From Bacteroidales bacterium (GTDB lineage: Bacteria > Bacteroidota > Bacteroidia > Bacteroidales > WCHB1-69), in the NCBI GenBank assembly GCA_045130235.1, contig JBGUPJ010000025.1:16873-80872 (forward strand): 64,000 bases of DNA, read 5' to 3'. Below the pieces are notes generated by a model. That model made no database searches. It was not told where the DNA came from and saw only the letters and a program-made list of their open reading frames with translations. This document shows, one piece after another, positions 4,629-63,236 of this stretch (position 1 is its first letter; every line of letters begins with the position of its first letter). The position numbers were made by a program, and so were the translations under genes.

Positions 4629-4639
4629 CTTTATTTTAT

Positions 4640-5436: not shown

Positions 5437-5536
5437 CAACTATTTTTTTAAATTTTCTCTTTATTTGAAAAATAAAATAATTTTTAGCGAACAATTTCGT
5501 TTCTTGTTTGTCTATGTTATATTATATGTTGAATGA

Positions 5537-50185: not shown

Positions 50186-50272
50186 GGAGAGGTGGGTGAG
50201 TGGCTTAAACCACCAGTTTGCTAAACTGACGTAGGAGTAATCCTACCGCGAGTTCGAATCTCGCCCTCTCCG
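50186..50272 (+). tRNA. tRNA-Ser (GCT), class II with long variable arm
   Basis: GGAGAGGTGGGTGAGTGGCTTAAACCACCAGTTTGCTAAACTGACGTAGGAGTAATCCTACCGCGAGTTCGAATCTCGCCCTCTCCG. The anticodon loop is TTGCTAA and the variable arm is GTAGGA..TCCTAC. Confidence 0.9.
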
Positions 50273-50282
50273 CAAACAAAAA

Positions 50283-50303
50283 GGCGACACGAAAAGTGTC
50301 GCC
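50283..50303 (+). terminator. hairpin immediately after tRNA-Ser
   Basis: GGCGACAC-GAAAA-GTGTCGCC. The flanks CCGCAAACAA / TTGTTTGCAGG extend the inverted repeat. Confidence 0.55.
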
Positions 50304-50307
50304 TTAA

Positions 50308-50463
50308 TTGTTTGCAGGAAGCCGTCGTCCGCTTGCGGACGTAAGGCTGACGGCGAACAATTAGGAGGCCTTGCTGAGCAAAGGCCTTTTGTTTGCAAGG
50401 ACGCCCGCGGCAGCGCAAGGGATATGCAATCCCTCCAGAAGCCGCTTGCGGACGAAAGGATGA
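50308..50463 (+). repeat. two copies of a hairpin-containing motif, TTGTTTGCA(A)GGA...GAAGCCG..CCGCTTGCGGACG(T/A)AAGG(C/A)TGA
   Basis: Copy 1 is 50308-50350 and copy 2 is 50389-50463 (carrying an internal ~35-nt insertion). A GGCCTTGC-TGA-GCAAAGGCC-TTTT hairpin lies between them. Confidence 0.7.
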
Positions 50464-50621: not shown

Positions 50622-50629
50622 TATTTTTG
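50622..50629 (+). promoter_or_regulatory. -7 promoter element TATTTTTG for the hsdM operon
   Basis: 28 nt upstream of ATG 50657. Confidence 0.5.
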
Positions 50630-50656: not shown

Positions 50657-52159
50657 ATGATAACTGGTAAAATCAAATCCCAAATCGATGCCATCTGGAT
50701 GACGTTCTGGACCGGCGGGATTTCCAACTCCATTGATGTGCTTGAGCAGATGACCTACCTCTTCTTTATGAAGATGCTGGATGATGCTCAGCTGAACAAG
50801 GAAGCCACCGCGCAAGCGATGGGCATGACTGATTTCGAGGACCCGAATGCGGTGTTCAAAAAGGGCAACTGGCACAATCCCGACACCAACAGGGAGGTGC
50901 CGTACCACAACCTCCGCTGGAACGTGTTCCGGCAGTTCACGCCCGAGCAGATGTTCGACACGGTGCGTTTCGATGTGTTCACCTTTATTAAGAATATCAG
51001 TGATGAGAAGACTTCGGCCTATAGCCGCTTTATGAACGATGCCGTGTTCCTCATACAGCAACCTCGCACGCTGGTGAAGGTGGTGGAGGGCATTCAGGAG
51101 TTGGACATGAACGACCGTGACACCATGGGCGATGTGTATGAGTATGTGTTGGGCAAAATGGCCGCGGCAGGCACCAACGGGCAGTTCCGCACCCCGCGCC
51201 ACATTATCCGCATGATGGTGGAGCTGATGCAGCCCAAGCTGGACGACCGCATCTGCGACCCCGCTATGGGAACGGCGGGATTTCTGGTGGAAAGTGCCAA
51301 ATATATGCGCCGGCACCATGCCCAAGAACTGCTGAAGAAGCAGCACCAGACGCATTTCCGTACGAAAATGTTCAGCGGGTTCGATACCGACCCCAAGATG
51401 CTGCGCATTGGCTCGATGAACCTGATGCTCAATGGGGTGGACAACCCGAGTGTGATTGCACAGGACAGCCTCTCGAACCTGAACACTGCTGAAAGTACCT
51501 ACACCCTTTGTTTGGCAAATCCGCCTTTCTCGGGCAGCCTTGATTATGATGTGGTGAACTCGTCGCTGCTGGCAATGGCTCGCACCAAGAAGACAGAGCT
51601 GCTGTTCGTCAGTCTTTTCATCCGCATGTTGGAGTTGGGCGGCCGTTGCGCCTCTATTGTGCCTGACGGCGTTTTGTTTGGCAACAGTACGGGCCACAAG
51701 TCCATACGCAAGGAGCTGGTTGACAAGCAGCGCTTGCAGGCGGTGATTTCGATGCCCAGCGGGGTGTTCAAACCGTATGCAGGTGTCTCCACCGCCATCC
51801 TTATCTTCACCAAAACCAATGCCGGCGGCACCGACAAGGTGTGGTTTTACGACATGAAGGCCGACGGCTTTTCATTGGATGACAAGCGCAATCCTATTGC
51901 TGACAACGACATTCCCGATGTGATTGCCCGTTTCCACAACCTCGCCGCAGAGGAAAGCCGCACCCGCAAAGAGCAGAGTTTCCTGGTGCCTGTGGATGAA
52001 ATCAGAAACAACGGCTACGACCTCAGTATCAATAAGTACAAGGAGGTAGAGAAGGTGAAGGTGGAGTATGAAAATCCCGAGGTGGTGCTGGGAAGGATTG
52101 AGGCGTTGCAAACCGATATCAATGCCGCTTTCAAAGAGTTCAGAGAGAAATATATGTAA
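50657..52159 (+). CDS. hsdM: type I restriction-modification system, DNA methyltransferase subunit M
   Basis: HsdM_N-like start (IWMTFWTGGISNSIDVLEQMTYLFFMKMLD), SAM motif I DPAMGTAGFL and N6-adenine motif IV LANPPFSG. Confidence 0.93.
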   Translation: MITGKIKSQIDAIWMTFWTGGISNSIDVLEQMTYLFFMKMLDDAQLNKEATAQAMGMTDFEDPNAVFKKGNWHNPDTNREVPYHNLRWNVFRQFTPEQMFDTVRFDVFTFIKNISDEKTSAYSRFMNDAVFLIQQPRTLVKVVEGIQELDMNDRDTMGDVYEYVLGKMAAAGTNGQFRTPRHIIRMMVELMQPKLDDRICDPAMGTAGFLVESAKYMRRHHAQELLKKQHQTHFRTKMFSGFDTDPKMLRIGSMNLMLNGVDNPSVIAQDSLSNLNTAESTYTLCLANPPFSGSLDYDVVNSSLLAMARTKKTELLFVSLFIRMLELGGRCASIVPDGVLFGNSTGHKSIRKELVDKQRLQAVISMPSGVFKPYAGVSTAILIFTKTNAGGTDKVWFYDMKADGFSLDDKRNPIADNDIPDVIARFHNLAAEESRTRKEQSFLVPVDEIRNNGYDLSINKYKEVEKVKVEYENPEVVLGRIEALQTDINAAFKEFREKYM

Positions 52160-52161
52160 AA

Positions 52162-53070
52162 ATGGCAAACAAAGGCGCAGCATTAGAACAACTGGTTGCT
52201 TTAATTCAAGAAACATTGAAGGATAGGCAGGATGCGTCGATTCAAACCAATGTGATGTTGGCTGATAGTACGGGAATGAATCGAGAAATTGATGTGTTGG
52301 TTCATACCAAGATACAGGAATTTCCTATACTAATTGCTTTTGAATGTAAGAATTATGCAAAGAAAGCGGTTGATGTTCAAGTTGTGGATGCATTTATAGG
52401 AAAGTGTAAGTATCTTCCACAAATTCATCAAAAAGTAATTGTTTCTACTTCAGGTTTTACGGCTAATGCAACTGCCAGGGCAGAACAGGAAGGAATTAAA
52501 TTGTGTCCAATAGAGGAAATTCCTTTGTATAATATTTTAAGTGAATACCTTGTTTTTAGACCCATTCCAAATTTCCAAGTAGGTGAAACATTTAGCTTGA
52601 CATTTGATTCTAATAATTTGCCTTATGATACTGATATTTTGAATGATGGTAGTTACTTGATAATTGAAAATGCCGAATTTGATTTGAAACGCGAAGTATA
52701 CAAGGAAATAGTGAGTTTGGAATCACAAATGGAACTGGCCAAAAAATACATGGAGAATGAACGCAATCCATTTGTTGAAAATGTCACATTGCATTTTGAT
52801 TCAGGTGTTTACATAAAATGCAAAAATGAATGTAAATATAATGTGAGCGAAATCAAAGTACCCGTTCTCATTGATTTTGTTTTTGATAATGGAAAGATTG
52901 TCAAACAGCAAAAACTCGTACAGGGTGGAAATGTGTATATAACAGAGAATGAATTTAGGAAAATAGATAGTACTTTTAGCACTCTGGTCATTGAGGGTAA
53001 TGGGAAAACAAAAGTACTATTTAAACATGGTGATGAATTTATTGAACCGTCCATAAGAATAGAGTCATGA
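52162..53070 (+). CDS. Mrr-like PD-(D/E)xK restriction-endonuclease-fold domain fused to an unknown ~180-aa C-terminal domain
   Basis: GAALEQLVALIQETL...REIDVLVH...ILIAFECKNYAKKAVDVQVVDAFIGK...VIVSTSGFTANATARAEQEGIKL matches the Mrr_cat layout (D...E-x-K). It starts 3 nt after the hsdM stop and overlaps hsdS by 4 nt. About 32% GC on a hand-counted line. Confidence 0.65.
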   Translation: MANKGAALEQLVALIQETLKDRQDASIQTNVMLADSTGMNREIDVLVHTKIQEFPILIAFECKNYAKKAVDVQVVDAFIGKCKYLPQIHQKVIVSTSGFTANATARAEQEGIKLCPIEEIPLYNILSEYLVFRPIPNFQVGETFSLTFDSNNLPYDTDILNDGSYLIIENAEFDLKREVYKEIVSLESQMELAKKYMENERNPFVENVTLHFDSGVYIKCKNECKYNVSEIKVPVLIDFVFDNGKIVKQQKLVQGGNVYITENEFRKIDSTFSTLVIEGNGKTKVLFKHGDEFIEPSIRIES

Positions 53071-54164
53071 AAGAAAACTGGACATATAAGAAATTTAGTG
53101 AGGTGTTTAACCTACAAATGGGGAAAACACCAAGCCGAGATAATTTGGCATATTGGGGCGGTGATAATGTTTGGGTTTCCATTGCAGATTTAAAGGATAA
53201 ATATATTGAATCATCAAAGGAGCATATTACAGACATTGCTGTTTCTGAAAGTGGAATTAATAAAGTGCCACAAGACACTGCTATTATGAGCTTCAAACTG
53301 ACTATTGGCAGATCTGCCATTACAAAATGTGATTTGTTCACAAATGAAGCCATAATGTCTTTTGAGCCAAAAGAGAAAAACATTTTAGCAGCTGATTATA
53401 TCTATTATTATCTAAAAGGTTGTAAGTGGACTGGGGCAAACAAAGCAGTCATGGGACAAACTCTAAACAAAAAGACCATATCCGAGAATATGTTTGCATA
53501 CCCGTCTTTAGAAACCCAATCCCGCATCGTCTCCGAACTCGACCTCCTCCAATCCATCCTCGACAAGCAGCAAGCCCAACTCAAAGAACTGGACACCCTT
53601 GCACAATCCATTTTTTACGATATGTTCGGCGACCCGGTGGAGAATGAAAAGGGGTGGGAGGTGAAGAAATTAGGTGATGTATGCGAATTAAAAGCAGGTA
53701 AAAGTATTAAAGCGTCAGAACTGTCAAATTTACCAGCAGAAGGACTGTTTCCTTGCTATGGAGGAAATGGTATTAGAGGCTTTATTGCTAAAAAGTCTCA
53801 TAATAAAACATATCCTATTATTGGAAGGCAAGGTGCTTTATGCGGAAATGTTAATATGGCACAAGCACCATTTTATGCCACAGAACATGCAGTGGTTGTT
53901 ACTCCATCTATAGCATTAGATGTTGAATGGCTTTATTTTCAACTTAAGGCAATGAGATTAAATCAATATGCACATGGGGTTGCACAACCTGGATTATCGG
54001 TGCAAGATTTAACTCCACTATACATGATTGTTCCCACTATTAACCTTCAGCAATCCTTCGCCGCAAAGATTGAATCCATAGAAAAGCAGAAAGACGCCAT
54101 CAGCCAATCCATAGCGGAAACGCAGAAGTTGTTTGATTATACGATGGACAAGTATTTTGGATAA
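53067..54164 (+). CDS. hsdS: type I restriction-modification system, specificity subunit S
   Basis: Two target-recognition halves separated by a conserved coiled-coil block (SRIVSELDLLQSILDKQQAQLKELDTLAQSIFYDMFGDP), with a second conserved block at the C-terminus. Confidence 0.92.
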   Translation: MKENWTYKKFSEVFNLQMGKTPSRDNLAYWGGDNVWVSIADLKDKYIESSKEHITDIAVSESGINKVPQDTAIMSFKLTIGRSAITKCDLFTNEAIMSFEPKEKNILAADYIYYYLKGCKWTGANKAVMGQTLNKKTISENMFAYPSLETQSRIVSELDLLQSILDKQQAQLKELDTLAQSIFYDMFGDPVENEKGWEVKKLGDVCELKAGKSIKASELSNLPAEGLFPCYGGNGIRGFIAKKSHNKTYPIIGRQGALCGNVNMAQAPFYATEHAVVVTPSIALDVEWLYFQLKAMRLNQYAHGVAQPGLSVQDLTPLYMIVPTINLQQSFAAKIESIEKQKDAISQSIAETQKLFDYTMDKYFG

Positions 54165-54178
54165 AAAAGAATAGTTAT

Positions 54179-57100
54179 ATGAAATGTTTTGTAGAAAAAA
54201 TAAAAAATCTTTTTGGGAGGAGAAAAACAGATTCCGATGAGTCTGAATTGCGTTTTCACCCGCTAACACCTATTGATAATATTGAAGATCATAAAATCTA
54301 TCAAGACGCCTTGGAATTTTCTTTGCAGCAAGATGCTGTGAAAAACATTGCGGTTACAGGACCTTATGGCTCTGGCAAAAGCAGTGTCATTCAAAGTTTC
54401 TTTAAGAATTCCCCAAATAAATACAAAGTTATCACGTTATCGTTAGCTTCATTCCGCGACTGCGAGGAGGAATTGGGACAATCCGAGCAACAGGAACAAT
54501 CACAACGTGTTAAAAAACAAACAGATAAAGAGCAAACAAATCCAGAGAATAGAAATAATGGTTTTGCTGTTGACTCAAAATTACAACGGTTAATTGAAAT
54601 AAGTCTCCTTCAGCAACTTTTTTATCACGAAAAAGATTGCAAGTTGCCTGATTCACAGTTTAAAAAAATCAAAAAACAATCAAGATGTAAATTGTTGACA
54701 GTAACAGCGTTAGGACTTATCTTCATTTTGTCGCTTTTATATCTTCTGTTTCCAGATTTTCTCAAATCACTTATTGCCTATGACACAACTCATTGGGGGC
54801 AAAATTGGTGTTGGGCACCTTACGTTGCTCCCATTTGTCTGTTAGGAGTGTCTTTTTTTGTTTTGTATAAATTATCTCGGGTACTCATCAACATATCGGT
54901 CAAAAAGCTCAATTTGAAAACTGCTGAAATTGAGATAGACCAAAAGATTGACAAATCCATATTGAACAGCCATATCGATGAAATCATATATTTCTTTGAA
55001 GCAACTGATAATAATGTAGTTGTAATTGAAGATTTAGATAGATTTGAACACTCCGAAATTTTTGTCAAACTCAGGGAAATCAATCGTTTGATTAATAATT
55101 GCGATAAAATTGATCGTAAAATAACCTTTATATATGCTTTAAAAGATGAGGTCTTTGCAGATAAAGACAGAACCAAATTTTTTGATTTTATTCTTCCCAT
55201 TGTTCCCATCATCAATTATTCAAACTCTGGCGAGAAATTGCGGGCTTGTCTTCAAACCGAAATAGCGAAGGGATATATTTCAGAAGATTGTATTGACAAC
55301 ATCTCACTTTTTGTGAATGATATGCGATTGCTGTACAACATTGTTAATGAATACTACATATATTCAGATAAAGTAAACACTAGCAATTCATTGGATCATA
55401 ATAGGTTGTTGTCCATCATTGCCTATAAGAATTTGTATCCAAAGGATTTTTCTGATTTGGCGGAAAACAAAGGTGTATTATTTAATGCCATAAATAAAAA
55501 AGGCGATCTTTTGATGTCACAGATTTTAAGCTATAATCAAAAGATTGAAAAATTGAAAGAAAGAATTTCAGAAGCGACCAAGCAGAGTCTCAAAGATATT
55601 AAAGAGTTGCGATTATTATATTTGAGCAAGATTATAGAAAAATTGAATGGAAATTTTAAATCTTTTGTTTATGATAATGCTGATGTTTCCATGTCAAAAT
55701 GTGCTGAAAATGATGATATTTTCCAACAAGTTATAGATAATAGGATATTGTATAAGAATTTTAATAGGCCGTATAACACCCTTACTGTAGATTTTAAAAC
55801 CATAGAAAAGGAAGTTGATCCCAATGCTTCGTACGAACAAAGATCACAGGCCATTCAAGATAAAAATTCCATTGCAACTTTAGAAACACAAATTAGAGAA
55901 CTTGAAGATGAGCGAGATTCCTTATATAAAAAAACATTGAGTGAACTTTGGCCTGAACATACATCGGACATGAAAGAACAATCAAACCGAGAGGTAATTA
56001 TTGATATCTTCATTCGTAGTGGTTACATTAACGAAAATTATAACGATTACATCTCTATCTTCCACGAGGGAAGTCTTTCACGGTCCGACAATCAATTTAT
56101 CATCAATGTGAAAAGAGGTGTTCAATCCGACATGGATTATTCCTTGAATCACGTGGAAAATGTATTCAGGAAAATCAGTTTTTATAGTTTTGAATACCCT
56201 TGTACTTTGAATGTCAGTCTGGCGAATCACCTATTCGAAAAGTATCCTGATTCAAAACAAGCCGAATGTTTTATAATGCAACTTGCCAATGAATCCCAAC
56301 CATCTTTGGAATTTCTCGAAAAATACATTTTTGTCTGTACAAGTCCGCAGACTCTCTTTTCTAAACTTTGTGCAAGATGGAAAAATATTTGGCGGTTTGT
56401 TAGTTTACATGAGACAAAGGAAGACATAAAAGAGCAATACTATCATTCCATTCTTAAATATGCTGAATTGCAAGATGTTGTAATCGTTTTTGAGCAAAAT
56501 GAAGCCATAATTGCCAACGACCCTTCTTTCCTCAAAAAGAATATAGACCATACTCGAATCCTGGAAATCGTTAAGGGGTTAAACATCAAGTTCTTTTCGC
56601 TTAATCCGAATTATTCTGACGAGGTTTTTGAATTTGTGAGAAAAAATCGCCATTATGTGTTAACACATGAGAATCTAAAGGTTTTAATTCGCAAAGAACA
56701 TTGGGATGCAGATGCTTTCATTCACAAAAACTACTCTTATCTCAACCAATTGGAAGATAAATCCATCCTTGAATACGTGAATGAAAATCTTGCGGACTAT
56801 ATCCGAAATGTTTGGCTAAAATTGGATAGCAAGAGCGAGGAGGAAAAATACCTTATTCAATTAATCAATTCAAAGAAAATTGATTTAACTCTCAAAGAAC
56901 AAGTTGTTGAAAGAGTTGAAGTTTTAATTGACAACATTGAAGACATAGAAGATTCCAACGATTGGGAAATAGTATTTTTGTATATGAAAGTGAGACCCTC
57001 TTGGAAAAATGTAAGAGCATATTCAATAGCCAAAGGTGGGATAACTGGTGCCGTTTTATCGTGTGTAGAAAATGTGTCTTTTGTGAACCAACTTGTAGAA

Positions 57101-57832
57101 AACAAATTTCCACAAGAAGAGGGTTATAAGGATTTAGCTCTTCAACTCATATCTCTTAAAGGAATCTATACGAATTCATATACGAAACTTGTGAGTATAA
57201 TACCTTGGAAGATAACGGAAGTTCCAACAGATTTACCTCGAGAAAATATTCAAATATTGATTGAAAATGATATTGTTAAAGAGGTGATAGCTGCATACGA
57301 ATCATTAAAGGAACATTACAAAGGTTTGCATATTCAATTGATGTTGCACTATTTTGAGGAATTTGAAACTCGTTTTGAGGATTTGCATTTCTCTTCTGAA
57401 GATTTGAGAAGTATATTGAGTGTTAAATCGATTAGCAATAATCAATTACAAAAAATCATCGATTCGTTTGACAATGATACCATTGTTGAAGATATGACAG
57501 CATATAATCAAATATTAGAAAAGGGTATAAAGGGAGAAATTACCATCAATGATGAACTGATAACTGAAGCGATGATGAATCCAAATGTTTTACAAGAAAT
57601 CCGTATTCGATTATTCAATAAATATTATAAACTAATTTCAACAAGTTTTGCCGATTTTATTGATAATTTGGATCAACCGTACAATTTACTTAATGATAAG
57701 GATACACGGTTCTCATATATTCCAAAAAGTGAGTTGAATAAGTCGTTCTTAAGCTTGTTGAGAACATTGAATATCATTGGTACATTTTCAGAAGAACAAG
57801 ACAAATATAAAGTTAATCACAAACGTAAATAA
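54179..57832 (+). CDS. YobI/KAP-like P-loop NTPase, 1217 aa, with two TM helices inserted between Walker A and Walker B
   Basis: Walker A VTGPYGSGKSS (aa 59-69, nt 54353-54385). TM1 ~aa 171-192 (KLLTVTALGLIFILSLLYLLFP). TM2 ~aa 212-231 (APYVAPICLLGVSFFVLY). Walker B VVVIEDLDRFE (aa 280-290). About 900 aa of AT-rich, helix-prone C-terminus with no recognisable effector motif. Confidence 0.7.
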   Translation: MKCFVEKIKNLFGRRKTDSDESELRFHPLTPIDNIEDHKIYQDALEFSLQQDAVKNIAVTGPYGSGKSSVIQSFFKNSPNKYKVITLSLASFRDCEEELGQSEQQEQSQRVKKQTDKEQTNPENRNNGFAVDSKLQRLIEISLLQQLFYHEKDCKLPDSQFKKIKKQSRCKLLTVTALGLIFILSLLYLLFPDFLKSLIAYDTTHWGQNWCWAPYVAPICLLGVSFFVLYKLSRVLINISVKKLNLKTAEIEIDQKIDKSILNSHIDEIIYFFEATDNNVVVIEDLDRFEHSEIFVKLREINRLINNCDKIDRKITFIYALKDEVFADKDRTKFFDFILPIVPIINYSNSGEKLRACLQTEIAKGYISEDCIDNISLFVNDMRLLYNIVNEYYIYSDKVNTSNSLDHNRLLSIIAYKNLYPKDFSDLAENKGVLFNAINKKGDLLMSQILSYNQKIEKLKERISEATKQSLKDIKELRLLYLSKIIEKLNGNFKSFVYDNADVSMSKCAENDDIFQQVIDNRILYKNFNRPYNTLTVDFKTIEKEVDPNASYEQRSQAIQDKNSIATLETQIRELEDERDSLYKKTLSELWPEHTSDMKEQSNREVIIDIFIRSGYINENYNDYISIFHEGSLSRSDNQFIINVKRGVQSDMDYSLNHVENVFRKISFYSFEYPCTLNVSLANHLFEKYPDSKQAECFIMQLANESQPSLEFLEKYIFVCTSPQTLFSKLCARWKNIWRFVSLHETKEDIKEQYYHSILKYAELQDVVIVFEQNEAIIANDPSFLKKNIDHTRILEIVKGLNIKFFSLNPNYSDEVFEFVRKNRHYVLTHENLKVLIRKEHWDADAFIHKNYSYLNQLEDKSILEYVNENLADYIRNVWLKLDSKSEEEKYLIQLINSKKIDLTLKEQVVERVEVLIDNIEDIEDSNDWEIVFLYMKVRPSWKNVRAYSIAKGGITGAVLSCVENVSFVNQLVENKFPQEEGYKDLALQLISLKGIYTNSYTKLVSIIPWKITEVPTDLPRENIQILIENDIVKEVIAAYESLKEHYKGLHIQLMLHYFEEFETRFEDLHFSSEDLRSILSVKSISNNQLQKIIDSFDNDTIVEDMTAYNQILEKGIKGEITINDELITEAMMNPNVLQEIRIRLFNKYYKLISTSFADFIDNLDQPYNLLNDKDTRFSYIPKSELNKSFLSLLRTLNIIGTFSEEQDKYKVNHKRK

Positions 57833-58013
57833 TAGAAAATTCAATTTCGGAAAGGAGGAATGTTTTTTATCAAATGTCGTAACTAAAAGAAAACGAGTAT
57901 CGACAGAATTTATTTGCTTAATGGCAGGCATCTTCGGGACTCGTCACAAGTTGACAAATTGGGGATAATGAGATTAAAGTAAAAACATAAATTCGTATAA
58001 TCAAAATATTCTG

Positions 58014-58021
58014 TATTTTTG
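58014..58021 (+). promoter_or_regulatory. -7 promoter element TATTTTTG for the DUF3791-DUF3990-DUF3791-hsdR unit
   Basis: 35 nt upstream of ATG 58056, in a 223-nt gap after the NTPase gene. Confidence 0.5.
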
Positions 58022-58055
58022 CAAATTGTAATTCAAAAGAAAGAGGCCTAACAGA

Positions 58056-58271
58056 ATGGACAGAAACACATTGGAATTTGTAACCTACTGTATTGGAATG
58101 TTGTCGCTTCATCATCATTTGCCACAACAGGAGGTGTATAGCAGGTTAAAGAAGTCGGGCATATTATACGGATATATTGTGCCTTCGTATGATGTGCTGC
58201 ACACCTTTAGCTCGCACTATCTGATGGAAGACCTCACGGATTACATGAAAGAGAAAGGAGTTTTAGACTGA
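58056..58271 (+). CDS. DUF3791-family small protein
   Basis: MDRNTLEFVTYCIGMLSLHHHLPQQEVYSRLKKSGILYGYIVPSYDVLHTFSSHYLMEDL; family assignment from memory. Its stop overlaps the next ATG (TGATG). Confidence 0.6.
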   Translation: MDRNTLEFVTYCIGMLSLHHHLPQQEVYSRLKKSGILYGYIVPSYDVLHTFSSHYLMEDLTDYMKEKGVLD

Positions 58272-58741
58272 TGAAAGTGTATCATTCGTCCACAATTACG
58301 GTGAAGCATCCCGATACTACCCACTCACGGCAATACCTTGATTTCGGGCGTGGTTTCTACCTTACAACCCTTTACGAACAAGCAGTTCGGTATGCCGAGC
58401 GTTTCAAACGGCGTGGACAAATGGCTTGGCTCAACACCTACGAATTGGCAGACCATTGCGACGGTTGGAAAGTGCTCCGTCTGGATGCTTACGATAAAAC
58501 ATGGCTCGATTTTGTGTCGGTTTGTCGCTCGGGAGAAGACAAGAGCGATTACGATATGGTGGTGGGTGGCATCGCCAACGATAGAGTGATTTTCACGCTT
58601 GATCGTTATTTTGCAGGAGAGATATCTCAGGAAGAGGCACTTGGGTTGCTGAAATATGAGAAACCCAATGTACAGTATTGCATCCGCTCGGAAAGGATGC
58701 TTCAAGAATGTTTGACATTTATTGAAAGCAAGGAATTATGA
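58271..58741 (+). CDS. DUF3990-family protein (possible ADP-ribosyltransferase-like fold)
   Basis: MKVYHSSTITV...LDFGRGFYLTT...; the conserved GFY motif is typical of DUF3990. It overlaps the next gene by 4 nt (ATGA). Confidence 0.6.
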   Translation: MKVYHSSTITVKHPDTTHSRQYLDFGRGFYLTTLYEQAVRYAERFKRRGQMAWLNTYELADHCDGWKVLRLDAYDKTWLDFVSVCRSGEDKSDYDMVVGGIANDRVIFTLDRYFAGEISQEEALGLLKYEKPNVQYCIRSERMLQECLTFIESKEL

Positions 58742-58971
58742 CGGAGGTTACCAAGCAGATTATTCATAGTGAGCAGTGCGCAAGAATCATCCTGTGCATA
58801 AGCGAAATGGCAGGTGTGAGCATACAGGAGGCCACCGATATGTTTTACGAATCGGAAACCGCCAATCTGATTGAGGAGGGGGTGGCTGACTTGCACTGCC
58901 GTAGCGACAAGTATCTTGCAACTTTGGTGATAGAAGAATATCAAGAGAAAAAAGACAGCCTATCGTCATAA
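58738..58971 (+). CDS. second DUF3791-family small protein
   Basis: ...ARIILCISEMAGVSIQEATDMFYESETANLIEEGVADLHCRSDKYLATLVIEEY has the same layout as 58056..58271. Its stop overlaps the hsdR ATG (TAATG). Confidence 0.55.
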   Translation: MTEVTKQIIHSEQCARIILCISEMAGVSIQEATDMFYESETANLIEEGVADLHCRSDKYLATLVIEEYQEKKDSLSS

Positions 58972-61900
58972 TGCGCAACTTCGACTATCTTAACCCCCTT
59001 GGTCTCAACGACCTGCACCGCTTCTGCTCCGCTGCGGAAGAGCACCAGCTGAGCAACCCCGATTTCAGCGCGGTGAATGCCCGAAAGGCGCTGGAATACA
59101 TCGTGTGCGCCTTGTACTTTATGAAGAACATCGATGTGCCCGAAAGGAGCTCGCTGTTTGAGTTGGTCGATGGCAAGCCGTTCCGCGATTTCATCAACGA
59201 CGACCGCATCATGATGGCGGTTCACTATGTGCGCAAGGTGGGCAACAATGCCGCCCATACGGGGAAGGTGTCGAAAAAGGAGTCGTTTTTTGCTTTGCTG
59301 AACATCTACAACGTGGTTGGCGCTGTGCTGCTGAAATTGAAAGTGGTGCAGGAGGTCAAGCCTTTTGACAGCAACCTCATCCCGAAAACCGTAGAGCAGC
59401 CAGCCTTCCCGCCCGCCACAGTGGAGGTGAACGCCTCCGACCCCATCGTGGCTGCTACTGACAAGTCGTCACTGTCGGCTTCGAGTCCAGTGGTCCATAT
59501 TCCAACCGACATTTCGGAGGCCGAGACCCGAAAGGTGTTCATCGACCTGATGCTGAAGGAGGCCGGTTGGGAAATCCTGTTGCAGGAGAATGTGCCGTAC
59601 GCCACAAAGGCCGGCATTGAGATTGAAGTGCTCGGGATGCCCAACAATGAGAGCAAAGGCTATTGCGACTATGTGCTGTATGGCCGCGACGGCCGACCGC
59701 TGGCGGTGATTGAAGCCAAACGCACCAGCGTGAGCGAGGAGAAGGGAAAACACCAAGCGGAGTTGTATGCCGACTGTTTGGAACGCCAGTACGGCTTGCG
59801 CCCTGTAATCTACTATACCAACGGATATCACACGAAAATCATTGATGGATTGGGCTACCCGCCCCGTCCCGTGCTGGGCTTTCACACACTGGAGGACTTG
59901 GAGCTGCTCATCTCACGAAGGGGACGGCAGAAGATGACAAACCTCGCCATCAAAGACAAGATCACCAACCGTGAGTACCAGAAGCGAGCCATCCGTGCTG
60001 TGTGCGACCATCTCAACAGCATGCACCGCCATGCCCTGATTGTGATGGCTACGGGCACGGGCAAGACCCGTGTGGCCATTTCGCTGTGCGACGTGCTGCT
60101 GCGAAACCAATGGGTGAAGAATATCCTGTTTCTCGCCGACCGCACCTCCTTGGTGAAACAGGCCTACGAGAATTTCTCCACGTTGCTGCCGGATTATTCC
60201 GTCTGCAAACTGACCGATGCGGTAGAGGAGGACATGAACGCCCGTCTGATGTTCAGCACCTACCAGACCATGATCAACTACATTGATGCCGAACAGAAGC
60301 GGTTCTCTATCGGCCGGTTTGACCTGATTATTCTGGATGAGGCGCACCGCTCCATCTTCGGAAAATACACTTCCATCTTCGACTATTTCGACAGTTTCTT
60401 GGTGGGCCTTACCGCCACGCCCCGCGACGAGGTGGACCGCAGCACCTACGATATGTTCCACTTGGAGAGTGGCGAACCCAATTTCACCTATTCGCAGGAA
60501 GAGGCGGAACGGGACGGCTACCTTGTGGGCTATAATCCCGTATCGCGCACCACAAGGATGCTGCGAGAAGGCATTCTCTACGACAAGCTCTCAGACGAAG
60601 AGAAGGAGCAGCTGGACAATGTATGGGAGTACGAGCGCACGAAAGCGGAAATGGAAACAGGGTCGGCACAGGAGAAAACCCCACGCGATATCGAATCGCA
60701 GGAATTGTTCGACTATATCTACAATAAGTCAACAGTTGATCTTGTGCTTCAAGACCTGATGAACAACGGGTTGAAGGTCAACAATGGTGAAAAGATAGGC
60801 AAAAGCATCATCTTTGCATATAAACATAGCCATGCCCAACTGATTGTGGAGCGGTTTTATGCATTGTATCCGGATTTTGGAAGCGATTTTTGCCAGCTGA
60901 TTGACTATAGCGTCAACTATGCGCAGGACATTATCGACAGATTCAAAGAGAGGGAGAAGATGCCGCAGATTGCGGTGTCGGTGGGCATGCTCGACACGGG
61001 TATTGACGTGCCCGACATTTTGAATCTGGTGTTTTTCAAGCCGGTGTACAGCCGTATCCGGTTCGTCCAGATGGTGGGGCGTGGCACCCGTCTCTGTCCC
61101 GCGATTTTTGCCGACGGTTCCGACAAGAAGGAGTTTTACATCTTTGACTGGTGCAACAATTTTGAGTATTTCAACGATAATCGTAGCGGTAGGGAACCGT
61201 TGCCACCCATGTCGCTCTCGGAGCGTCTATTCGGTTTGATGCTTGACATAGCGGTGATTTTGCAGCACCAGAAATACCAGCAGGACGATTTCGCCCGTTC
61301 ATTGTGCAAAGAATTGAAAGAGATTCTTTTCGCGCAGGTGTGCCATTTGAATGAGAAGCATATCTCCGTCCGTAATAATTGGGCGGTGGTTTGCAAATTC
61401 AAAAATGCCGACAGATGGGTGTATATTTCGGAGTTGGATGCGTTGGAGATGAAGCAGCAGATTGCCCCCATCATTTTGAATGAGAGTGATGACAACGGCA
61501 GCCGTATGTTTGACGCGCTGATGTTGAACATCGAACTGTCGAAACTGACATCGGAGGTCAATGCTGCTCGCAGTACGCGAAAGGTCACACAAATAGCCCA
61601 ACGCTTGCAGCACAAAGCGACCATTCCCGCTGTGCAGGAGAGAATGTCAACCATTATTGAGGTCAGCAATCCCTCGTTCTGGCAATCGGCATCCATTGAA
61701 AGATTGGAAACCATTCGTCAGGAATTACGAGATATCATCTATGTGACATTAGGCTCGCAACACGAGCGCTTTTACATCAATATCGCCGATACGATGGAGG
61801 AGAAAGAGGGGGTGGAAAGACCGCAAATCGATATGGATTACCACACGCGGATTTTGGATTATCTGAGAGAGCATAGGAACCATCCTGCCATCAATAAAAT

Positions 61901-62297
61901 ATACCATTTGGAACAACTTTCCGCTGCCGACATTGCGGAACTGGAACATATCTGTTGGAAGGAACTGGGCACGAAAGAGGAGTACGAACACTATGTCAGC
62001 AAAGGTCAGATGATTTGCGGGGATAAAGTGGCTGCCTTCATCCGCTCCATCATTGGTATTGACAGGCAAATTGCCAAAGAGCGGTATTCAAAATTCTTGA
62101 GCGACAACATCTTGAACAGTCTTCAAGAAGAGTACATCAACCAAATCATCGGCTATGTTTGTGAAAATGGCGACATCACTCCTGAGACGCTCATCACGGA
62201 TGAAAACTTCACGGACCTTGATTGGAACGGTGTATTTGGCCAAAATCTCGCCACTCTACGCAAATACATTGATGAGCTGCATCGGTTGATTGCGTAA
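58971..62297 (+). CDS. hsdR: type I restriction endonuclease subunit R with N-terminal DUF4145-like domain
   Basis: DUF4145-like NARKALEYIV...VHYVRKVGNNAAHTG (aa ~35-97). PD-(D/E)xK nuclease CDYVLYGRDGRPLAVIEAKR. SF2 helicase motifs LIVMATGTGKT, LIILDEAHRS, GLTATP and VQMVGRGTR. EcoEI_R_C-like tail. Confidence 0.92.
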   Translation: MRNFDYLNPLGLNDLHRFCSAAEEHQLSNPDFSAVNARKALEYIVCALYFMKNIDVPERSSLFELVDGKPFRDFINDDRIMMAVHYVRKVGNNAAHTGKVSKKESFFALLNIYNVVGAVLLKLKVVQEVKPFDSNLIPKTVEQPAFPPATVEVNASDPIVAATDKSSLSASSPVVHIPTDISEAETRKVFIDLMLKEAGWEILLQENVPYATKAGIEIEVLGMPNNESKGYCDYVLYGRDGRPLAVIEAKRTSVSEEKGKHQAELYADCLERQYGLRPVIYYTNGYHTKIIDGLGYPPRPVLGFHTLEDLELLISRRGRQKMTNLAIKDKITNREYQKRAIRAVCDHLNSMHRHALIVMATGTGKTRVAISLCDVLLRNQWVKNILFLADRTSLVKQAYENFSTLLPDYSVCKLTDAVEEDMNARLMFSTYQTMINYIDAEQKRFSIGRFDLIILDEAHRSIFGKYTSIFDYFDSFLVGLTATPRDEVDRSTYDMFHLESGEPNFTYSQEEAERDGYLVGYNPVSRTTRMLREGILYDKLSDEEKEQLDNVWEYERTKAEMETGSAQEKTPRDIESQELFDYIYNKSTVDLVLQDLMNNGLKVNNGEKIGKSIIFAYKHSHAQLIVERFYALYPDFGSDFCQLIDYSVNYAQDIIDRFKEREKMPQIAVSVGMLDTGIDVPDILNLVFFKPVYSRIRFVQMVGRGTRLCPAIFADGSDKKEFYIFDWCNNFEYFNDNRSGREPLPPMSLSERLFGLMLDIAVILQHQKYQQDDFARSLCKELKEILFAQVCHLNEKHISVRNNWAVVCKFKNADRWVYISELDALEMKQQIAPIILNESDDNGSRMFDALMLNIELSKLTSEVNAARSTRKVTQIAQRLQHKATIPAVQERMSTIIEVSNPSFWQSASIERLETIRQELRDIIYVTLGSQHERFYINIADTMEEKEGVERPQIDMDYHTRILDYLREHRNHPAINKIYHLEQLSAADIAELEHICWKELGTKEEYEHYVSKGQMICGDKVAAFIRSIIGIDRQIAKERYSKFLSDNILNSLQEEYINQIIGYVCENGDITPETLITDENFTDLDWNGVFGQNLATLRKYIDELHRLIA

Positions 62298-62337
62298 AAG
62301 GGAAAAGAAAAAATATCATCAATTCAAAAAAATGTAG

Positions 62338-62345
62338 TACTTTTG
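62338..62345 (+). promoter_or_regulatory. possible -7 promoter element TACTTTTG
   Basis: It lies 41 nt after the hsdR stop and 166 nt upstream of ATG 62511. Confidence 0.35.
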
Positions 62346-62424
62346 CCGCCAGATGAGAAAGAGGAACGGATTTAAGTCAACTTGCCAACCTCTCTAAAAA
62401 ACGCGCTAAATAACAACCAGCCAT

Positions 62425-62458
62425 ACGCGGTGTTCTTTAGCGATAAAGGACACCGCGT
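62425..62458 (+). other. 15-bp stem hairpin with GCGA (GNRA) tetraloop, enclosed by a 9-10 bp long-range pairing (62351-62360 with 62458-62467)
   Basis: ACGCGGTGTTCTTTA-GCGA-TAAAGGACACCGCGT (one G-U pair). AGATGAGAAA upstream pairs with TTTCTCATCT immediately downstream. Confidence 0.6.
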
Positions 62459-62510
62459 TTCTCATCTTCGGCACTGAACCTTCTGGTGTATAGGCAACCA
62501 CCTCCGAGCG

Positions 62511-63236
62511 ATGAGAGAACGAGATTTTATGAAACACAAAAGAATTGTCCTGAATGAACCCCACGCTTCCGTAGAGGGACTGTACGACGAGCGTCTGAGC
62601 GGTTGGACTGTCGATGCACGCTTCATCAACGAAGTGGTGTGCCGTCTGACGGACTGGCACACGGACTATCTTTTCCATGGTTTCCGGCACCCGGGTATAA
62701 AGGCGGTGCGTTTCCCGTACTCCCGCTTCATTGTCGATGCGGAGCGGCTATGGAATGACCCGCTGGAGGCGGAAGGGCAGGGGATTATCTACCGCCATTT
62801 CAACGGCTACCGGCGCAATGTGCCCAAACAGCACGAAGCACGCTTGCTGCAACTGTGGGAAGGCCATCAGCAAAGACTGAAAGCCAACTTGTGTCAGGAC
62901 GCCCTGCTGATTGACTGCCACTCGTTTCCTGAGGACATGGGCGACGTGGACATCTGTATCGGATTCAACGAGGACTGGTCGAAACCGAGCCGCGTGTTGC
63001 TGGATTACACGATGGATCTGTTTGACAGCCACGGCTATTCGGTCGGTGTCAACAATCCGTACAGCAATTCGGAAGCCCCTAAGTGTCCGTTCCGCTACCA
63101 CTCCATGATGCTGGAGGTGAACAAGCGGGTCTATCTGGAAAAACGGTCGATGTATCTAAAAACGAACTACGGTAAAAGAAAAGATGTCCGGGATCTGTTT
63201 TCCCAATTGATGCAGGCACTGGTCGCCAGTGAATAG
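62511..63236 (+). CDS. N-formylglutamate amidohydrolase (FGase, PF05013-like) family protein
   Basis: NEPHAS, YSRFIVDAER, LLIDCHSF, DICIGFN, VNNPYS and MMLEVNKRVY follow the FGase motif order. The alternative start is ATG 62529. Confidence 0.6.
   Translation: MRERDFMKHKRIVLNEPHASVEGLYDERLSGWTVDARFINEVVCRLTDWHTDYLFHGFRHPGIKAVRFPYSRFIVDAERLWNDPLEAEGQGIIYRHFNGYRRNVPKQHEARLLQLWEGHQQRLKANLCQDALLIDCHSFPEDMGDVDICIGFNEDWSKPSRVLLDYTMDLFDSHGYSVGVNNPYSNSEAPKCPFRYHSMMLEVNKRVYLEKRSMYLKTNYGKRKDVRDLFSQLMQALVASE

What the first reader, a model, noticed from the sequence alone, without database searches (positions are those of the whole stretch)
58056..58971. DUF3791-DUF3990-DUF3791 triad translationally chained into hsdR
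Three small ORFs (71, 156 and 77 aa) start 35 nt after a TATTTTTG promoter element and are linked by TGATG, ATGA and TAATG overlaps, the last one into the hsdR start codon. HsdR is therefore translated only in the wake of the triad. The middle protein has YHSS near its N-terminus and GRGFYLT 20 residues later. This order is reminiscent of the H-x-[ST] and G-x-Y motifs of H-Y-[E/D/Q] ADP-ribosyltransferase-like folds (PARP, DarT, Tpt1). I recall DUF3990 being grouped with that clan but cannot verify it here. Two paralogous small helical proteins flanking a putative enzyme resemble a toxin with antitoxin or adaptor partners. The GC content is host-like (53%), unlike the NTPase, suggesting an older association with hsdR.
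Basis: partly seen in the sequence, partly recalled or inferred. Interest (0 to 1): 0.6.

Follow-up and report, generated by a model that had tools for sequence, protein, structure and literature searches.

The report
Mobile ART-fold toxin cassette inside RM operon
Three tightly overlapping small genes just upstream of a restriction-enzyme gene are a widespread, self-contained, mobile cassette already catalogued as the untested defence candidate PDC-M13, built around a PARP-like enzyme fold, and its link to the restriction gene is a local accident of insertion.

Summary
One number is wrong: the triad is 45% GC, not 53%.

- **Families:** ORF1 is DUF3791 and ORF2 is DUF3990. ORF3 is a divergent DUF3791 paralogue. 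PADLOC recognises all three as PDC-M13 A/B/C, a candidate defence system proposed by Payne et al. (2024) and never tested.
- **Enzyme fold:** DUF3990 gives a confident model. Its best solved-structure match is a RES NAD+-degrading toxin, and it also matches phage ART-PolyVal domains. Conserved residues follow a PARP-like pattern: Y-H-G-S, G-F-Y, an aromatic 11 residues later, and an invariant Asp before strand 5.
- **A unit of its own:** All 80 loci from other species keep the A-B-C order, mostly with 4-nt overlaps. Only about 10% have defence genes next door.
- **Recently mobile:** A 97%-identical copy sits elsewhere with no hsdR.
- **The slot:** Orthologous type I operons have this hsdS-hsdR slot empty or filled with Septu, AbiU or unknown genes.

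The triad is therefore an autonomous passenger. It is probably a toxin-antitoxin-like module that uses NAD+, not a gate on HsdR translation. This is a new member of a catalogued but uncharacterised kind, of moderate interest.

The parts
58014..58021 (+). TATTTTTG, a Bacteroidota-type -7 promoter box (TAnnTTTG) ahead of the triad
   Evidence: It is the only + strand match in the 223-nt gap after Tmn. The motif is enriched in the window (58 found, 35 expected) and recurs just upstream of many genes, including hsdM (50622-50629). Promoter function is inferred.
58021..58055 (+). 35-nt leader that travels with the cassette
   Evidence: The 96.8% nucleotide homology to the hsdR-less copies L118 and L120 starts at 58021. 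Homology to L082 and L083 starts at 57900.
58056..58271 (+). Gene A: DUF3791 (A-type), 71 aa, a small four-helix protein
   Evidence: Pfam PF12668 E 6.6e-22. PADLOC PDC-M13A E 3.8e-24. AlphaFold model of 4 helices, pLDDT 88.7, with no solved-structure fold match. Invariant residues F8, Y28, Y40, L48 and H49.
58271..58741 (+). Gene B: DUF3990, 156 aa, a minimal ART-fold enzyme and the putative effector or toxin
   Evidence: Pfam PF13151 E 7.3e-45. PADLOC PDC-M13B E 1.8e-52. Model pLDDT 95.8. Foldseek best solved-structure hit is the RES toxin 9r35_A (E 1e-3, prob 1.0), followed by weak hits (E about 2.4 or above, prob up to 0.25) to PARP10, PARP14, TNKS2 and cholera toxin. Viral-library hits are ART-PolyVal domains, with weaker PARP, Arr and DarT matches. 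Conserved residues H5, S7, D24, F29, Y30, aromatic 41, W78, D95, G99, D104 and Q135.
58738..58971 (+). Gene C: divergent DUF3791 paralogue (C-type), 77 aa, with the motif G-[IV]-A-D-L-H-C-R-S-D-x-Y-L
   Evidence: PADLOC PDC-M13C E 6.4e-22. Pfam DUF3791 only E 0.0036, below the cut-off. hhalign against the A-type gives prob 76%, E 2.3e-5. Present after B in every complete locus. Invariant residues Y37, D51, S56 and Y59.
58971..62297 (+). hsdR, the type I restriction subunit and the host operon gene downstream of the inserted cassette. Its ATG overlaps the stop codon of C (TAATG).
   Evidence: Pfam ResIII, HSDR_N, EcoEI_R_C and DUF4145. PADLOC REase_I E 5e-155. Orthologues align from residue 1.
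50657..52159 (+). hsdM, the first gene of the type I RM operon, preceded by a TATTTTTG box at 50622-50629
   Evidence: Pfam N6_Mtase E 1.3e-64 and HsdM_N. Promoter box.
53067..54164 (+). hsdS, the specificity subunit. The cargo slot lies between its 3' end and hsdR.
   Evidence: Pfam Methylase_S E 4.3e-36. Only the conserved central and C-terminal segments match orthologues.
54179..57832 (+). Tmn/YobI-like P-loop NTPase (1217 aa), a second and independent cargo gene in the same hsdS-hsdR slot
   Evidence: Pfam YobI-ATPase E 6.8e-118. PADLOC Tmn E 9.3e-117. GC 32.6%. Absent from L082 and L083, which carry three other ORFs there.
52162..53070 (+). Mrr_cat-domain nuclease-like protein (302 aa) embedded between hsdM and hsdS
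   Evidence: Pfam Mrr_cat E 3.6e-09. No PADLOC hit. GC 33.8%. Absent from L083, where hsdS follows hsdM directly.

Best explanation
The three genes are one autonomous, horizontally mobile cassette of about 0.95 kb. In PADLOC it is the candidate system PDC-M13. The cassette has been inserted seamlessly into the cargo slot between hsdS and hsdR of a type I restriction-modification operon in an uncultured Bacteroidales bacterium. In related strains this slot is empty or holds other defence systems.

Shown here:
- The triad is a conserved unit with family-wide internal overlaps.
- It is mostly found alone.
- It has moved recently.
- Its middle protein has an ART fold with a PARP-like pattern of conserved residues.

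Inferred:
- B (DUF3990) is an NAD+-using enzyme that acts as a toxin or effector. It would either ADP-ribosylate a nucleic acid or protein target, or destroy NAD+ as RES toxins do.
- The catalytic set would be H5 and S7 on strand 1, Y30 on strand 2, the aromatic at position 41, and D95 at the start of strand 5.
- A (the obligatory partner, also present in two-gene variants) and C (its paralogue) are small helical proteins. They would hold B inactive and/or sense the trigger, so the module works as a toxin-antitoxin-like abortive-infection or addiction device.
- The overlap with hsdR and the internal promoter box mean that hsdR is probably co-transcribed, and perhaps translationally coupled, with the cassette in this strain. 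That is a by-product of in-operon insertion, not the cassette's function.
For: Cassette identity:
- PADLOC matches PDC-M13A/B/C at E 4e-24, 2e-52 and 6e-22.

Unit character:
- 80 loci from other species keep the A-B-C order. The only incomplete ones are cut by a contig end.
- A-B overlaps by 4 nt in 61 of 74 loci, and B-C by 4 nt in 53 of 74.
- All three genes show purifying selection.

Autonomy:
- Immediate neighbours are mostly housekeeping genes.
- About 10% or fewer are defence-like at E 1e-10.
- Type I RM genes lie nearby in only 2 of 81 loci.
- The orientation of the downstream neighbour is random, 37 same strand against 34 opposite.

Mobility:
- The 935-nt stretch 58021-58955 is 96.8% identical to copies in L118-L121, which sit between unrelated genes with no hsdR.
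- 86 plasmid records carry DUF3990, among them pBF9343 and about a dozen Bacteroides, Phocaeicola and Segatella records annotated DUF3990 (mostly with an adjacent DUF3791); the three best-scoring records carry no such annotation.

Slot:
- The slot is empty in L084, L087, L100 and L103.
- It holds Septu PtuAB in L095 and L096, AbiU plus an AriA-like ATPase in L106, and unknown genes elsewhere.
- L082 and L083 share the leader, triad and hsdR at 96% identity but carry different upstream cargo.

Enzyme:
- Pfam places DUF3990 in the ART clan (PMC7955679).
- The model has pLDDT 95.8.
- The best solved-structure match is the RES toxin 9r35_A, with weak PARP hits below it.
- The viral library gives ART-PolyVal, PARP, Arr and DarT matches.
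- Conservation is H5 50/51, G6 42/51, S7 47/51, Y30 51/51, aromatic 41 51/51 and D95 51/51.

Toxin activity:
- DUF3990 is the C-terminal domain of the Serratia Rhs5 effector (PMC4524185).
Against: - No experiment exists for any member. Toxicity, NAD+ use and phage defence are all inferred.
- Structural similarity to solved ARTs is modest (TM 0.47-0.53). No sequence-level match to any solved structure was found.
- D95 was assigned as the third catalytic residue from its position relative to the predicted strand, not from a superposition. Q135 (50/51) and D104 (49/51) are alternatives.
- DUF3791 has no structural or functional precedent, so the antitoxin or sensor role is a guess based on gene arrangement.
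- About 90% of loci have no defence neighbour. This fits a plain addiction module as well as it fits a defence system.
- In three strains the C-hsdR junction is conserved, so some local co-adaptation with hsdR cannot be excluded.
Confidence: 0.55

Rival explanations
1. The triad is functionally tied to the type I enzyme. It would gate HsdR synthesis by obligatory translational coupling, or act as a PrrC-like guard that the restriction complex keeps silent and that fires when a phage anti-restriction protein disables it.
For: - The stop of C overlaps the hsdR ATG, with a promoter box 34 nt before A.
- The leader-triad-hsdR block is conserved at 96% in L082 and L083 while the upstream cargo differs.
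- The triad is also embedded in another type I operon (L058), in BREX (L075; L079 has only a PglX-like methylase immediately upstream) and in Dpd-like helicase clusters (L031, L034).
- PrrC is the precedent for a toxin embedded in type I RM (named).
Against: - Only 2 of 81 loci have type I RM genes within 10 kb.
- A 96.8%-identical cassette lacks hsdR and still ends in ...TCATAATG.
- Orthologous operons work without it, or with Septu or AbiU in the same slot.
- Tight spacing before hsdR is the rule in these operons whatever gene precedes it. Gaps of 1-8 nt are seen in L087, L090, L100 and L106.
- Downstream neighbours are as often on the opposite strand as on the same strand.
Confidence: 0.1
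2. The cassette is a plain addiction (toxin-antitoxin) module. It stabilises plasmids, islands or operons and has no antiviral role. Its presence inside defence operons only reflects that these are permissive insertion sites.
For: - It is carried on 86 plasmid records, 28 of them conjugative. In pBF9343 a two-gene version sits next to a zeta-toxin module.
- About 90% of chromosomal loci have no defence neighbour.
- It is a compact, overlapping operon of a toxin-fold gene with small partners.
Against: - It has been inserted independently into at least three kinds of DNA-modification defence system: type I RM, BREX and Dpd-like clusters.
- The same slot in orthologues carries validated defence systems.
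- Many toxin-antitoxin modules turn out to be abortive-infection systems, so the two readings are not exclusive (established knowledge).
Confidence: 0.2
3. B is not a toxin. It would be a benign small ART acting on a small molecule or in RNA repair, like Arr (rifamycin ADP-ribosyltransferase, an H-Y-D enzyme) or Tpt1. A and C would be helpers.
For: - B is of minimal size (156 aa) with an H/Y/D-type residue set.
- There are weak fold hits to a rifampin ART (E 0.32) and to DarT (E 0.84).
- It is often found among housekeeping genes.
Against: - DUF3990 is used as an Rhs toxin tip.
- It has a patchy distribution across phyla and sits on plasmids.
- It is embedded in defence operons.
- Its best fold match is a toxin.
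- The invariable pairing with small partner genes by overlaps is typical of toxin control.
Confidence: 0.07

Closest known systems
PADLOC phage defence candidate PDC-M13 (Payne et al. 2024, bioRxiv 10.1101/2024.01.29.577857)
   Same: It has the same three protein families in the same order (E 4e-24, 2e-52 and 6e-22). It has the same kind of context by which the candidate set was defined, embedding in BREX, DISARM or type I RM systems. It is very abundant in rumen Bacteroidales and Prevotella, with 3324 hits in 6530 genomes (PMC13356809).
   Different: Nothing differs at the level of gene content, so this is an instance of it. PDC-M13 itself has no tested function. The main text of that paper does not discuss M13 or its ART fold.
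Xre-RES and MbcTA toxin-antitoxin systems (RES-domain NAD+-degrading toxins)
   Same: The best solved-structure match of B is a RES toxin in its Xre-RES complex (9r35_A, E 1e-3, prob 1.0). Both are small ART-clan toxins encoded next to small partner genes.
   Different: B has the H-G-S / Y / D pattern, not the R-E-S signature. The partners are four-helix DUF3791 proteins with no detectable helix-turn-helix or Xre fold. There are two partners, not one.
CmdTAC (tripartite toxin-antitoxin-chaperone system with an mRNA ADP-ribosyltransferase; PMC11618068)
   Same: It is a three-gene module built around an ART-fold effector, used for abortive infection.
   Different: No SecB-like chaperone is present, since A and C match only DUF3791. 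No sequence relationship was detected. The gene order and the paralogous partners differ.
DarTG (DNA ADP-ribosyltransferase toxin with a macrodomain antitoxin)
   Same: It has an ART-clan toxin of the H-Y-E type, and it is a defence toxin-antitoxin module. Pfam lists DarT in the same clan.
   Different: No macrodomain or other ADP-ribose-removing enzyme is found in the cassette or among frequent neighbours. The fold hit to DarT is weak (E 0.84).
PrrC-EcoprrI (anticodon nuclease embedded in a type I RM operon)
   Same: It is a toxin gene nested among the hsd genes of a type I operon and co-expressed with them.
   Different: PrrC is almost exclusively RM-embedded. This triad is RM-embedded in 2 of 81 loci. 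The toxin fold is unrelated.
Rhs5-CT toxin domain of Serratia marcescens (DUF3990; PMC4524185)
   Same: It has the same Pfam domain, used as an antibacterial effector tip with a downstream immunity gene.
   Different: There the domain is fused to an Rhs delivery scaffold. Here it is a free-standing 156-aa protein with DUF3791 partners. Whether Rhs immunity proteins are DUF3791-like was not tested.

Membership tests
PADLOC PDC-M13 | Three adjacent genes matching the M13A, M13B and M13C profiles | tested here: met
   E 3.8e-24, 1.8e-52 and 6.4e-22 for ORF1, ORF2 and ORF3. The genes are contiguous and on the same strand.
Pfam DUF3990 (PF13151) | Score above the gathering cut-off over the full domain | tested here: met
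   152.8 bits against a cut-off of 32.2, profile positions 1-151 of 152.
Pfam DUF3791 (PF12668) | Score above the gathering cut-off (25 bits) | tested here: inconclusive
   ORF1 scores 77.7 bits, which meets it. ORF3 scores 17.7 bits, which does not. ORF3 is related by profile-profile comparison (prob 76%, E 2.3e-5) and shares the L-H-[TC]-x-S-x-x-Y motif.
ADP-ribosyltransferase superfamily, H-Y-[E/D/Q] branch | ART fold (split beta-sheet core) | tested here: met
   Model pLDDT 95.8. Foldseek finds the RES toxin (prob 1.0, TM 0.47-0.50), with weak hits to PARP10, PARP14, TNKS2 and cholera toxin, and ART-PolyVal domains (E 2e-4, prob 1.0). Pfam clan membership is confirmed in PMC7955679. TM scores are modest.
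ADP-ribosyltransferase superfamily, H-Y-[E/D/Q] branch | Conserved His (with Ser/Thr two residues on) in strand 1 | tested here: met
   H5 50/51, G6 42/51 and S7 47/51, within predicted strand 2-7.
ADP-ribosyltransferase superfamily, H-Y-[E/D/Q] branch | Conserved Tyr in strand 2, plus a second aromatic about 10 residues later | tested here: met
   Y30 51/51 within strand 29-32, and position 41 is aromatic in 51/51 (W37, Y7, F7). The +11 spacing equals that of PARP1 Y896/Y907 (own knowledge).
ADP-ribosyltransferase superfamily, H-Y-[E/D/Q] branch | Acidic or Gln catalytic residue at the start of strand 5 | tested here: inconclusive
   D95 is invariant (51/51) immediately before strand 96-101. 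It was assigned by position only, because no superposition was available.
ADP-ribosyltransferase superfamily, H-Y-[E/D/Q] branch | NAD+ binding and ADP-ribosyl transfer or NAD+ hydrolysis | not testable with these tools
   This needs biochemistry.
RES-domain toxins (Xre-RES, MbcTA) | Conserved Arg-Glu-Ser signature and an Xre/MbcA-type antitoxin | tested here: not met
   No Pfam RES hit. The conserved set is H/S/Y/D/Q. Partner A has no helix-turn-helix fold match.
CmdTAC / TAC systems | SecB-like chaperone and an antitoxin with a chaperone-addiction element | tested here: not met
   A and C match only DUF3791 in Pfam. A is a four-helix protein.
DarTG | Macrodomain antitoxin next to the ART toxin | tested here: not met
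   No macrodomain in A or C and none among frequent neighbours.
PrrC-like RM-dependent guard | Near-exclusive embedding in type I RM operons | tested here: not met
   Type I RM genes lie within 10 kb in 2 of 81 triad loci. A near-identical copy has no hsdR.
Type II toxin-antitoxin module (generic) | The toxin is neutralised by direct binding of an adjacent small protein | not testable with these tools
   Only the arrangement is seen, namely overlapping small partner genes. Complex prediction was not possible with the tool's output.

The most novel reading that the evidence does not exclude
DUF3990 is a new kind of NAD+-dependent effector, possibly one that ADP-ribosylates nucleic acids. It would be controlled by a heterodimer of two DUF3791 paralogues of unprecedented fold. 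When embedded in DNA-modification defences (type I RM here, BREX and Dpd elsewhere), it would act as a second line of defence that fires when the host restriction complex is disabled by phage anti-restriction proteins. This would be a PrrC-like guard logic reached by an unrelated toxin, with translational coupling to hsdR setting the stoichiometry.
Probability: 0.08. Interest if true: 0.75.

Novelty: new member of a known kind. Interest (0 to 1): 0.38.

Why it matters
PDC-M13 is one of the most abundant predicted defence candidates in gut and rumen Bacteroidales, at roughly one per two genomes in one survey (PMC13356809), and nothing is known about how it works.

This analysis gives it a concrete, testable mechanism:
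- a minimal PARP-like ART-fold enzyme with named candidate catalytic residues (H5, S7, Y30, aromatic 41, D95);
- two paralogous partners of unknown fold;
- evidence that the 0.95-kb unit moves as a cassette without any recognisable mobility genes.

It also documents a cargo hotspot between hsdS and hsdR in one type I RM lineage. That slot is empty or holds Septu, AbiU, Tmn, PDC-M13 or unknown genes, which makes it a useful hunting ground for new defence genes.

It removes the idea that the triad is an HsdR-specific regulator.

Tried and rejected
- **Solved structures, by sequence.** Searches with B alone, the B profile, the A profile and the C profile gave only chance-level hits.
- **Helix-turn-helix idea for DUF3791.** Weak profile hits to YlxM-like proteins (E 0.1-0.5) raised this. 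The four-helix model has no significant fold match (best E 4.4), so it is not supported.
- **Shared promoter or flanks among distant cassettes.** There are none. Nucleotide homology to 50 loci starts at the ATG of A and ends 20-50 nt before the stop of C.
- **Flanking repeats that could explain mobility.** None were convincing.
- **Structured RNA in the leader or locus.** Only the tRNA-Ser was found.
- **Conserved coupling of C into a downstream gene.** This is rejected. Only about 5 of 71 loci have a downstream neighbour abutting or overlapping, and neighbour orientation is random.
- **C-type partner in pBF9343.** The 86-aa ORF after DUF3990 is not C-type (prob 2%). That plasmid carries a two-gene variant.
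- **Technical dead ends.**
  - Alignment A1 was too diverse for the locus search.
  - A prediction of the A-B-C complex was not attempted, because the tool reports no interface information.
Full report
**1. Observation**

- Three ORFs of 71, 156 and 77 aa lie at 58056-58271, 58271-58741 and 58738-58971 on the + strand.
- The junctions are TGATG, ATGA and TAATG. The last one shares its A with the ATG of a 1108-aa hsdR at 58971-62297.
- TATTTTTG lies at 58014-58021, 34 nt before the first ATG. TAnnTTTG, the Bacteroidota -7 box, is enriched in the window (58 matches, 35 +/- 5.8 expected). It recurs just upstream of many genes, including hsdM at 50622-50629.
- Pfam gives DUF3791 (E 6.6e-22) for ORF1 and DUF3990 (E 7.3e-45) for ORF2. 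For ORF3 it gives only a sub-threshold DUF3791 hit (17.7 bits against a cut-off of 25).
- The hsdR start is secure, because 25 orthologues align from residue 1.

One stated number is wrong. The triad is 45.2% GC (GC3 48.5%), not 53%. It sits between hsdM/hsdR (51-53%, GC3 68-73%) and the low-GC Mrr/hsdS/Tmn block (33-39%). The argument for an 'older, host-like association with hsdR' therefore has no basis.

**2. What the genes are**

- PADLOC-DB recognises the three proteins as PDC-M13A, M13B and M13C (E 3.8e-24, 1.8e-52 and 6.4e-22).
[quoted passage not shown] They were added to PADLOC but not tested (10.1101/2024.01.29.577857). That paper's main text does not discuss M13.
- A rumen survey counted 3324 PDC-M13 hits in 6530 genomes (PMC13356809).
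- Only four papers in the searchable library mention DUF3990 and only one mentions DUF3791. None of them characterises either family.

**3. The middle protein has an ART fold**

- Pfam lists DUF3990 in the ADP-ribosyltransferase clan, alongside PARP, DarT, RES and others (PMC7955679).
- The exhaustive search found 2182 cluster representatives at E <= 1e-3.
- In an alignment of 51 full-length representatives at 31-51% identity, the invariant residues are D24, F29, Y30, W78, D95 and G99. Near-invariant residues are H5 (50/51), S7 (47/51), Q37, A38, R86, D104 and Q135. Position 41 is always aromatic.
- The consensus reads Y-H-G-S ... D-F-G-x-G-F-Y-x-T-x(4)-Q-A-x-x-W ... Y-D-[ILV]-[IV]-x-G.
- From my own knowledge of PARP1 (H862-G-S; G-x-G-I-Y896-F-A...S904...Y907; E988 at the head of a strand), this is the same order and the same Y-to-aromatic spacing of +11.
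- The AlphaFold model is confident (pLDDT 95.8). It places H5 and S7 in strand 2-7, Y30 in strand 29-32, and D95 immediately before strand 96-101.
- Against solved structures, Foldseek's only strong match is the RES toxin of the Pseudomonas putida Xre-RES complex (9r35_A, E 1e-3, prob 1.0, TM 0.47-0.50). Weak matches to PARP10, PARP14, TNKS2 and cholera toxin follow.
- Against viral models it finds ART-PolyVal domains (E 2e-4, prob 1.0) and, more weakly, PARP, rifampin ART and DarT.
- No sequence-level relative has a solved structure.
- DUF3990 is also the C-terminal toxin domain of the Serratia Rhs5 type VI effector (PMC4524185).

I therefore accept 'ART-fold enzyme, probably a toxin'. I propose H5/S7, Y30, aromatic 41 and D95 as the active-site set. 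The D95 assignment is positional only.

**4. The two small proteins**

- ORF1 (A-type) and ORF3 (C-type) are distant paralogues. hhalign gives prob 76% and E 2.3e-5 over 56 columns, with a shared L-H-[TC]-x-S-x-x-Y-[LI] motif.
- They do not cross-hit in phmmer. Each keeps its own position in every locus.
- The A model is a four-helix protein (pLDDT 88.7) with no significant match to any solved fold (best E 4.4).
- A weak sequence hint of a helix-turn-helix is therefore not supported.
- A two-gene variant, consisting of a longer DUF3791 protein plus DUF3990, exists on the conjugative plasmid pBF9343 next to a zeta-toxin module. The A-type is therefore the core partner and the C-type an addition.

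**5. The triad is an autonomous unit, not an hsdR accessory**

- Every locus not cut by a contig end has A-B-C in this order.
- A-B overlaps by 4 nt in 61 of 74 loci. B-C overlaps by 4 nt in 53 of 74. The internal coupling is a family trait.
- By contrast, type I RM genes lie within 10 kb in only two loci: the window's own contig, and L058, where the triad sits between hsdM and hsdS.
- The immediate neighbours are a miscellany of housekeeping genes (SpoU methylase, topoisomerase, tRNA synthetase, RecA, GrpE, glycosidases).
- At E 1e-10 only about one locus in ten has a defence-like neighbour:
  - BREX in L075 (BrxC-PglX-triad-PglZ), with L079 having only a PglX-like methylase upstream;
  - Dpd-like helicases in L031 and L034;
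  - PDC-S01 ATPases.
- Downstream neighbours are on the same strand in 37 loci and on the opposite strand in 34. Only about five abut or overlap.
- The hosts span Bacteroidales, Clostridia, Adlercreutzia, a myxobacterial metagenome-assembled genome and Lentisphaeria.
- 86 plasmid records carry DUF3990.
- Five fecal 'Bacteriophage sp.' contigs also carry DUF3990.

**6. Recent mobility**

- A protein in the same 90%-identity cluster (P0393) is encoded on contigs L118-L121.
- There a 935-nt stretch, 96.8% identical to window 58021-58955, lies between a secreted endonuclease gene and either a PDDEXK_4 gene or an ion-channel/kinase/TerY/VWA/PP2C cluster. No hsdR is present.
- Homology starts exactly at the end of the TATTTTTG box, so the 35-nt leader belongs to the cassette.
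- Both copies end in ...TCATAATG, even where only a two-codon ORF follows.
- Across more distant loci, nucleotide similarity is confined to the coding region.
- No flanking repeats or mobility genes were found.
- Changes between copies are mainly synonymous in all three genes.

**7. The slot**

Orthologous type I operons with HsdR 60-98% identical were examined.
- hsdS abuts hsdR directly in L084, L087, L100 and L103.
- Elsewhere the same slot carries other cargo:
  - Septu PtuA/PtuB in L095 and L096 (E 2.7e-140 and 3.9e-72);
  - AbiU plus an AriA-like ATPase in L106;
  - unknown proteins in L085, L086, L088 and L094.
- A second slot between hsdM and hsdS also varies. The window carries an Mrr_cat protein there.
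- L082 and L083 share 96% identity with the window from 57900 to 63223, covering the leader, triad, hsdR and downstream flank. In place of Tmn they have three unrelated ORFs, and hsdM is only 89% identical.
- Gene spacing before hsdR is 1-8 nt in several of these operons, whatever gene comes first.
- The overlap of C with hsdR is therefore the normal outcome of seamless in-operon cargo insertion. The window's operon holds three independent passengers: Mrr-like, Tmn and PDC-M13.

**8. Mechanism**

Shown:
- a conserved, selected, mobile A-B-C operon;
- an ART fold with a PARP-like residue pattern in B;
- use of the same domain as a secreted antibacterial toxin;
- repeated insertion into DNA-modification defence operons and plasmids.

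Inferred:
- B consumes NAD+, either to ADP-ribosylate a macromolecule (as DarT and CmdT do) or to deplete NAD+ (as RES toxins do).
- A, perhaps together with C, keeps B inactive until a trigger arrives.
- The outcome is growth arrest, serving abortive infection and/or addiction.
- In this strain hsdR probably receives transcription from the cassette's promoter in addition to the hsdM promoter, and it may be translationally coupled. 'Only in the wake of the triad' is not demonstrated, and the wider comparison does not suggest it is functionally meaningful.

**9. Comparison and novelty**

- The cassette is a member of PDC-M13.
- It works most like small ART-clan toxin-antitoxin modules (Xre-RES/MbcTA, DarTG, CmdTAC). 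It fails the defining features of each: no R-E-S signature or Xre antitoxin, no macrodomain, and no SecB-like chaperone.
- It resembles PrrC only in being RM-embedded here. Unlike PrrC, it is rarely RM-embedded.
- It is thus a new member of a catalogued but mechanistically unknown kind.
- The residue-level ART assignment, the A/C paralogy, the evidence for cassette mobility and the hsdS-hsdR cargo hotspot are the useful additions.

**10. Scores**

- Interest is 0.38. This is an abundant, uncharacterised, testable system, but the specific claim that drew attention (chaining into hsdR) is incidental.
- The most novel reading not excluded is a PrrC-like guard coupled to restriction. I give it about 8% probability.

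Noticed in passing
window 54179-57832: A 1217-aa YobI-like P-loop NTPase matching the PADLOC defence protein Tmn (E 9e-117) lies in the same hsdS-hsdR slot. It is very low in GC (32.6%). Strains L082 and L083 have three unrelated ORFs of unknown function there, although they share the triad and hsdR at 96% identity.
   Followed up: partly
window 52162-53070: A 302-aa Mrr_cat-domain nuclease-like protein (33.8% GC, no PADLOC match) is embedded between hsdM and hsdS, with a 2-nt gap after hsdM and a 4-nt overlap into hsdS. Related operons lack it or carry other genes in this second slot, which makes it a candidate embedded defence gene.
   Followed up: partly
L118 7751-8685, also L119-L121; window 58021-58955: A 96.8%-identical copy of the whole cassette, including its 35-nt leader, occurs in other Bacteroidales contigs between unrelated genes and without hsdR. 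It ends in the same TCATAATG. No repeats or mobility genes flank it, so how the cassette moves is unexplained.
   Followed up: partly
window 54118-54165; L083 6555-6602 and 7605-7652; L082 606-653: The last 48 nt of hsdS appear twice in L083, once at the end of hsdS and once after the first cargo gene. This suggests that cargo is exchanged by recombination at the conserved 3' end of hsdS.
   Followed up: no
window 53067-54164: hsdS is mosaic. Only its first ~620 nt (against L106) or a central 170-nt segment, plus the last ~90 nt, match orthologues. This is the usual pattern of swapping of target-recognition domains.
   Followed up: no
L095 7865-9915 and L096 7864-9914; L106 4592-8272: Orthologous type I operons carry a complete Septu system (PtuA E 2.7e-140, PtuB E 3.9e-72), or AbiU plus an AriA-like ATPase plus an unknown 230-aa protein, in the hsdS-hsdR slot. 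Several other fillers (about 500 aa in L085, L086 and L088; 228 aa in L094) have no family match and are candidate new defence genes.
   Followed up: partly
L096 1615-2324: A second, divergent DUF3990 gene plus a C-type gene lies about 1.6 kb upstream of hsdM of an orthologous type I operon that already has Septu in its slot.
   Followed up: no
L062 2422-3536; L013 3152-3652; L043 11433-11859: Some genomes carry extra DUF3990 copies near the triad. In L062 a DUF3791 gene plus a 300-aa DUF3990 protein lies directly upstream of a full triad. L043 has fragments that look like a decayed copy.
   Followed up: no
L117 (pBF9343, NC_006873.1) 3555-5615: The conjugative Bacteroides fragilis plasmid pBF9343 and many near-identical gut Bacteroides plasmids carry a two-gene variant. 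It consists of a 149-aa protein with a C-terminal DUF3791 domain plus DUF3990, and it is immediately followed by a small ORF and a zeta-toxin gene.
   Followed up: partly
window 50186-50305: tRNA-Ser(GCT), followed by a strong 10-bp hairpin, lies 384 nt upstream of hsdM. In L106 the matching 190 nt (window 50246-50435) is found inverted downstream of hsdR. The RM island may therefore sit at a tRNA-associated, rearranging site.
   Followed up: no
L031 9706-17721 and L034 978-14093: The triad is embedded with gaps of 7-11 nt between large helicases whose best matches are PADLOC DpdE and DpdF (7-deazaguanine DNA modification system). This is a third kind of DNA-modification defence hosting the cassette.
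   Followed up: partly
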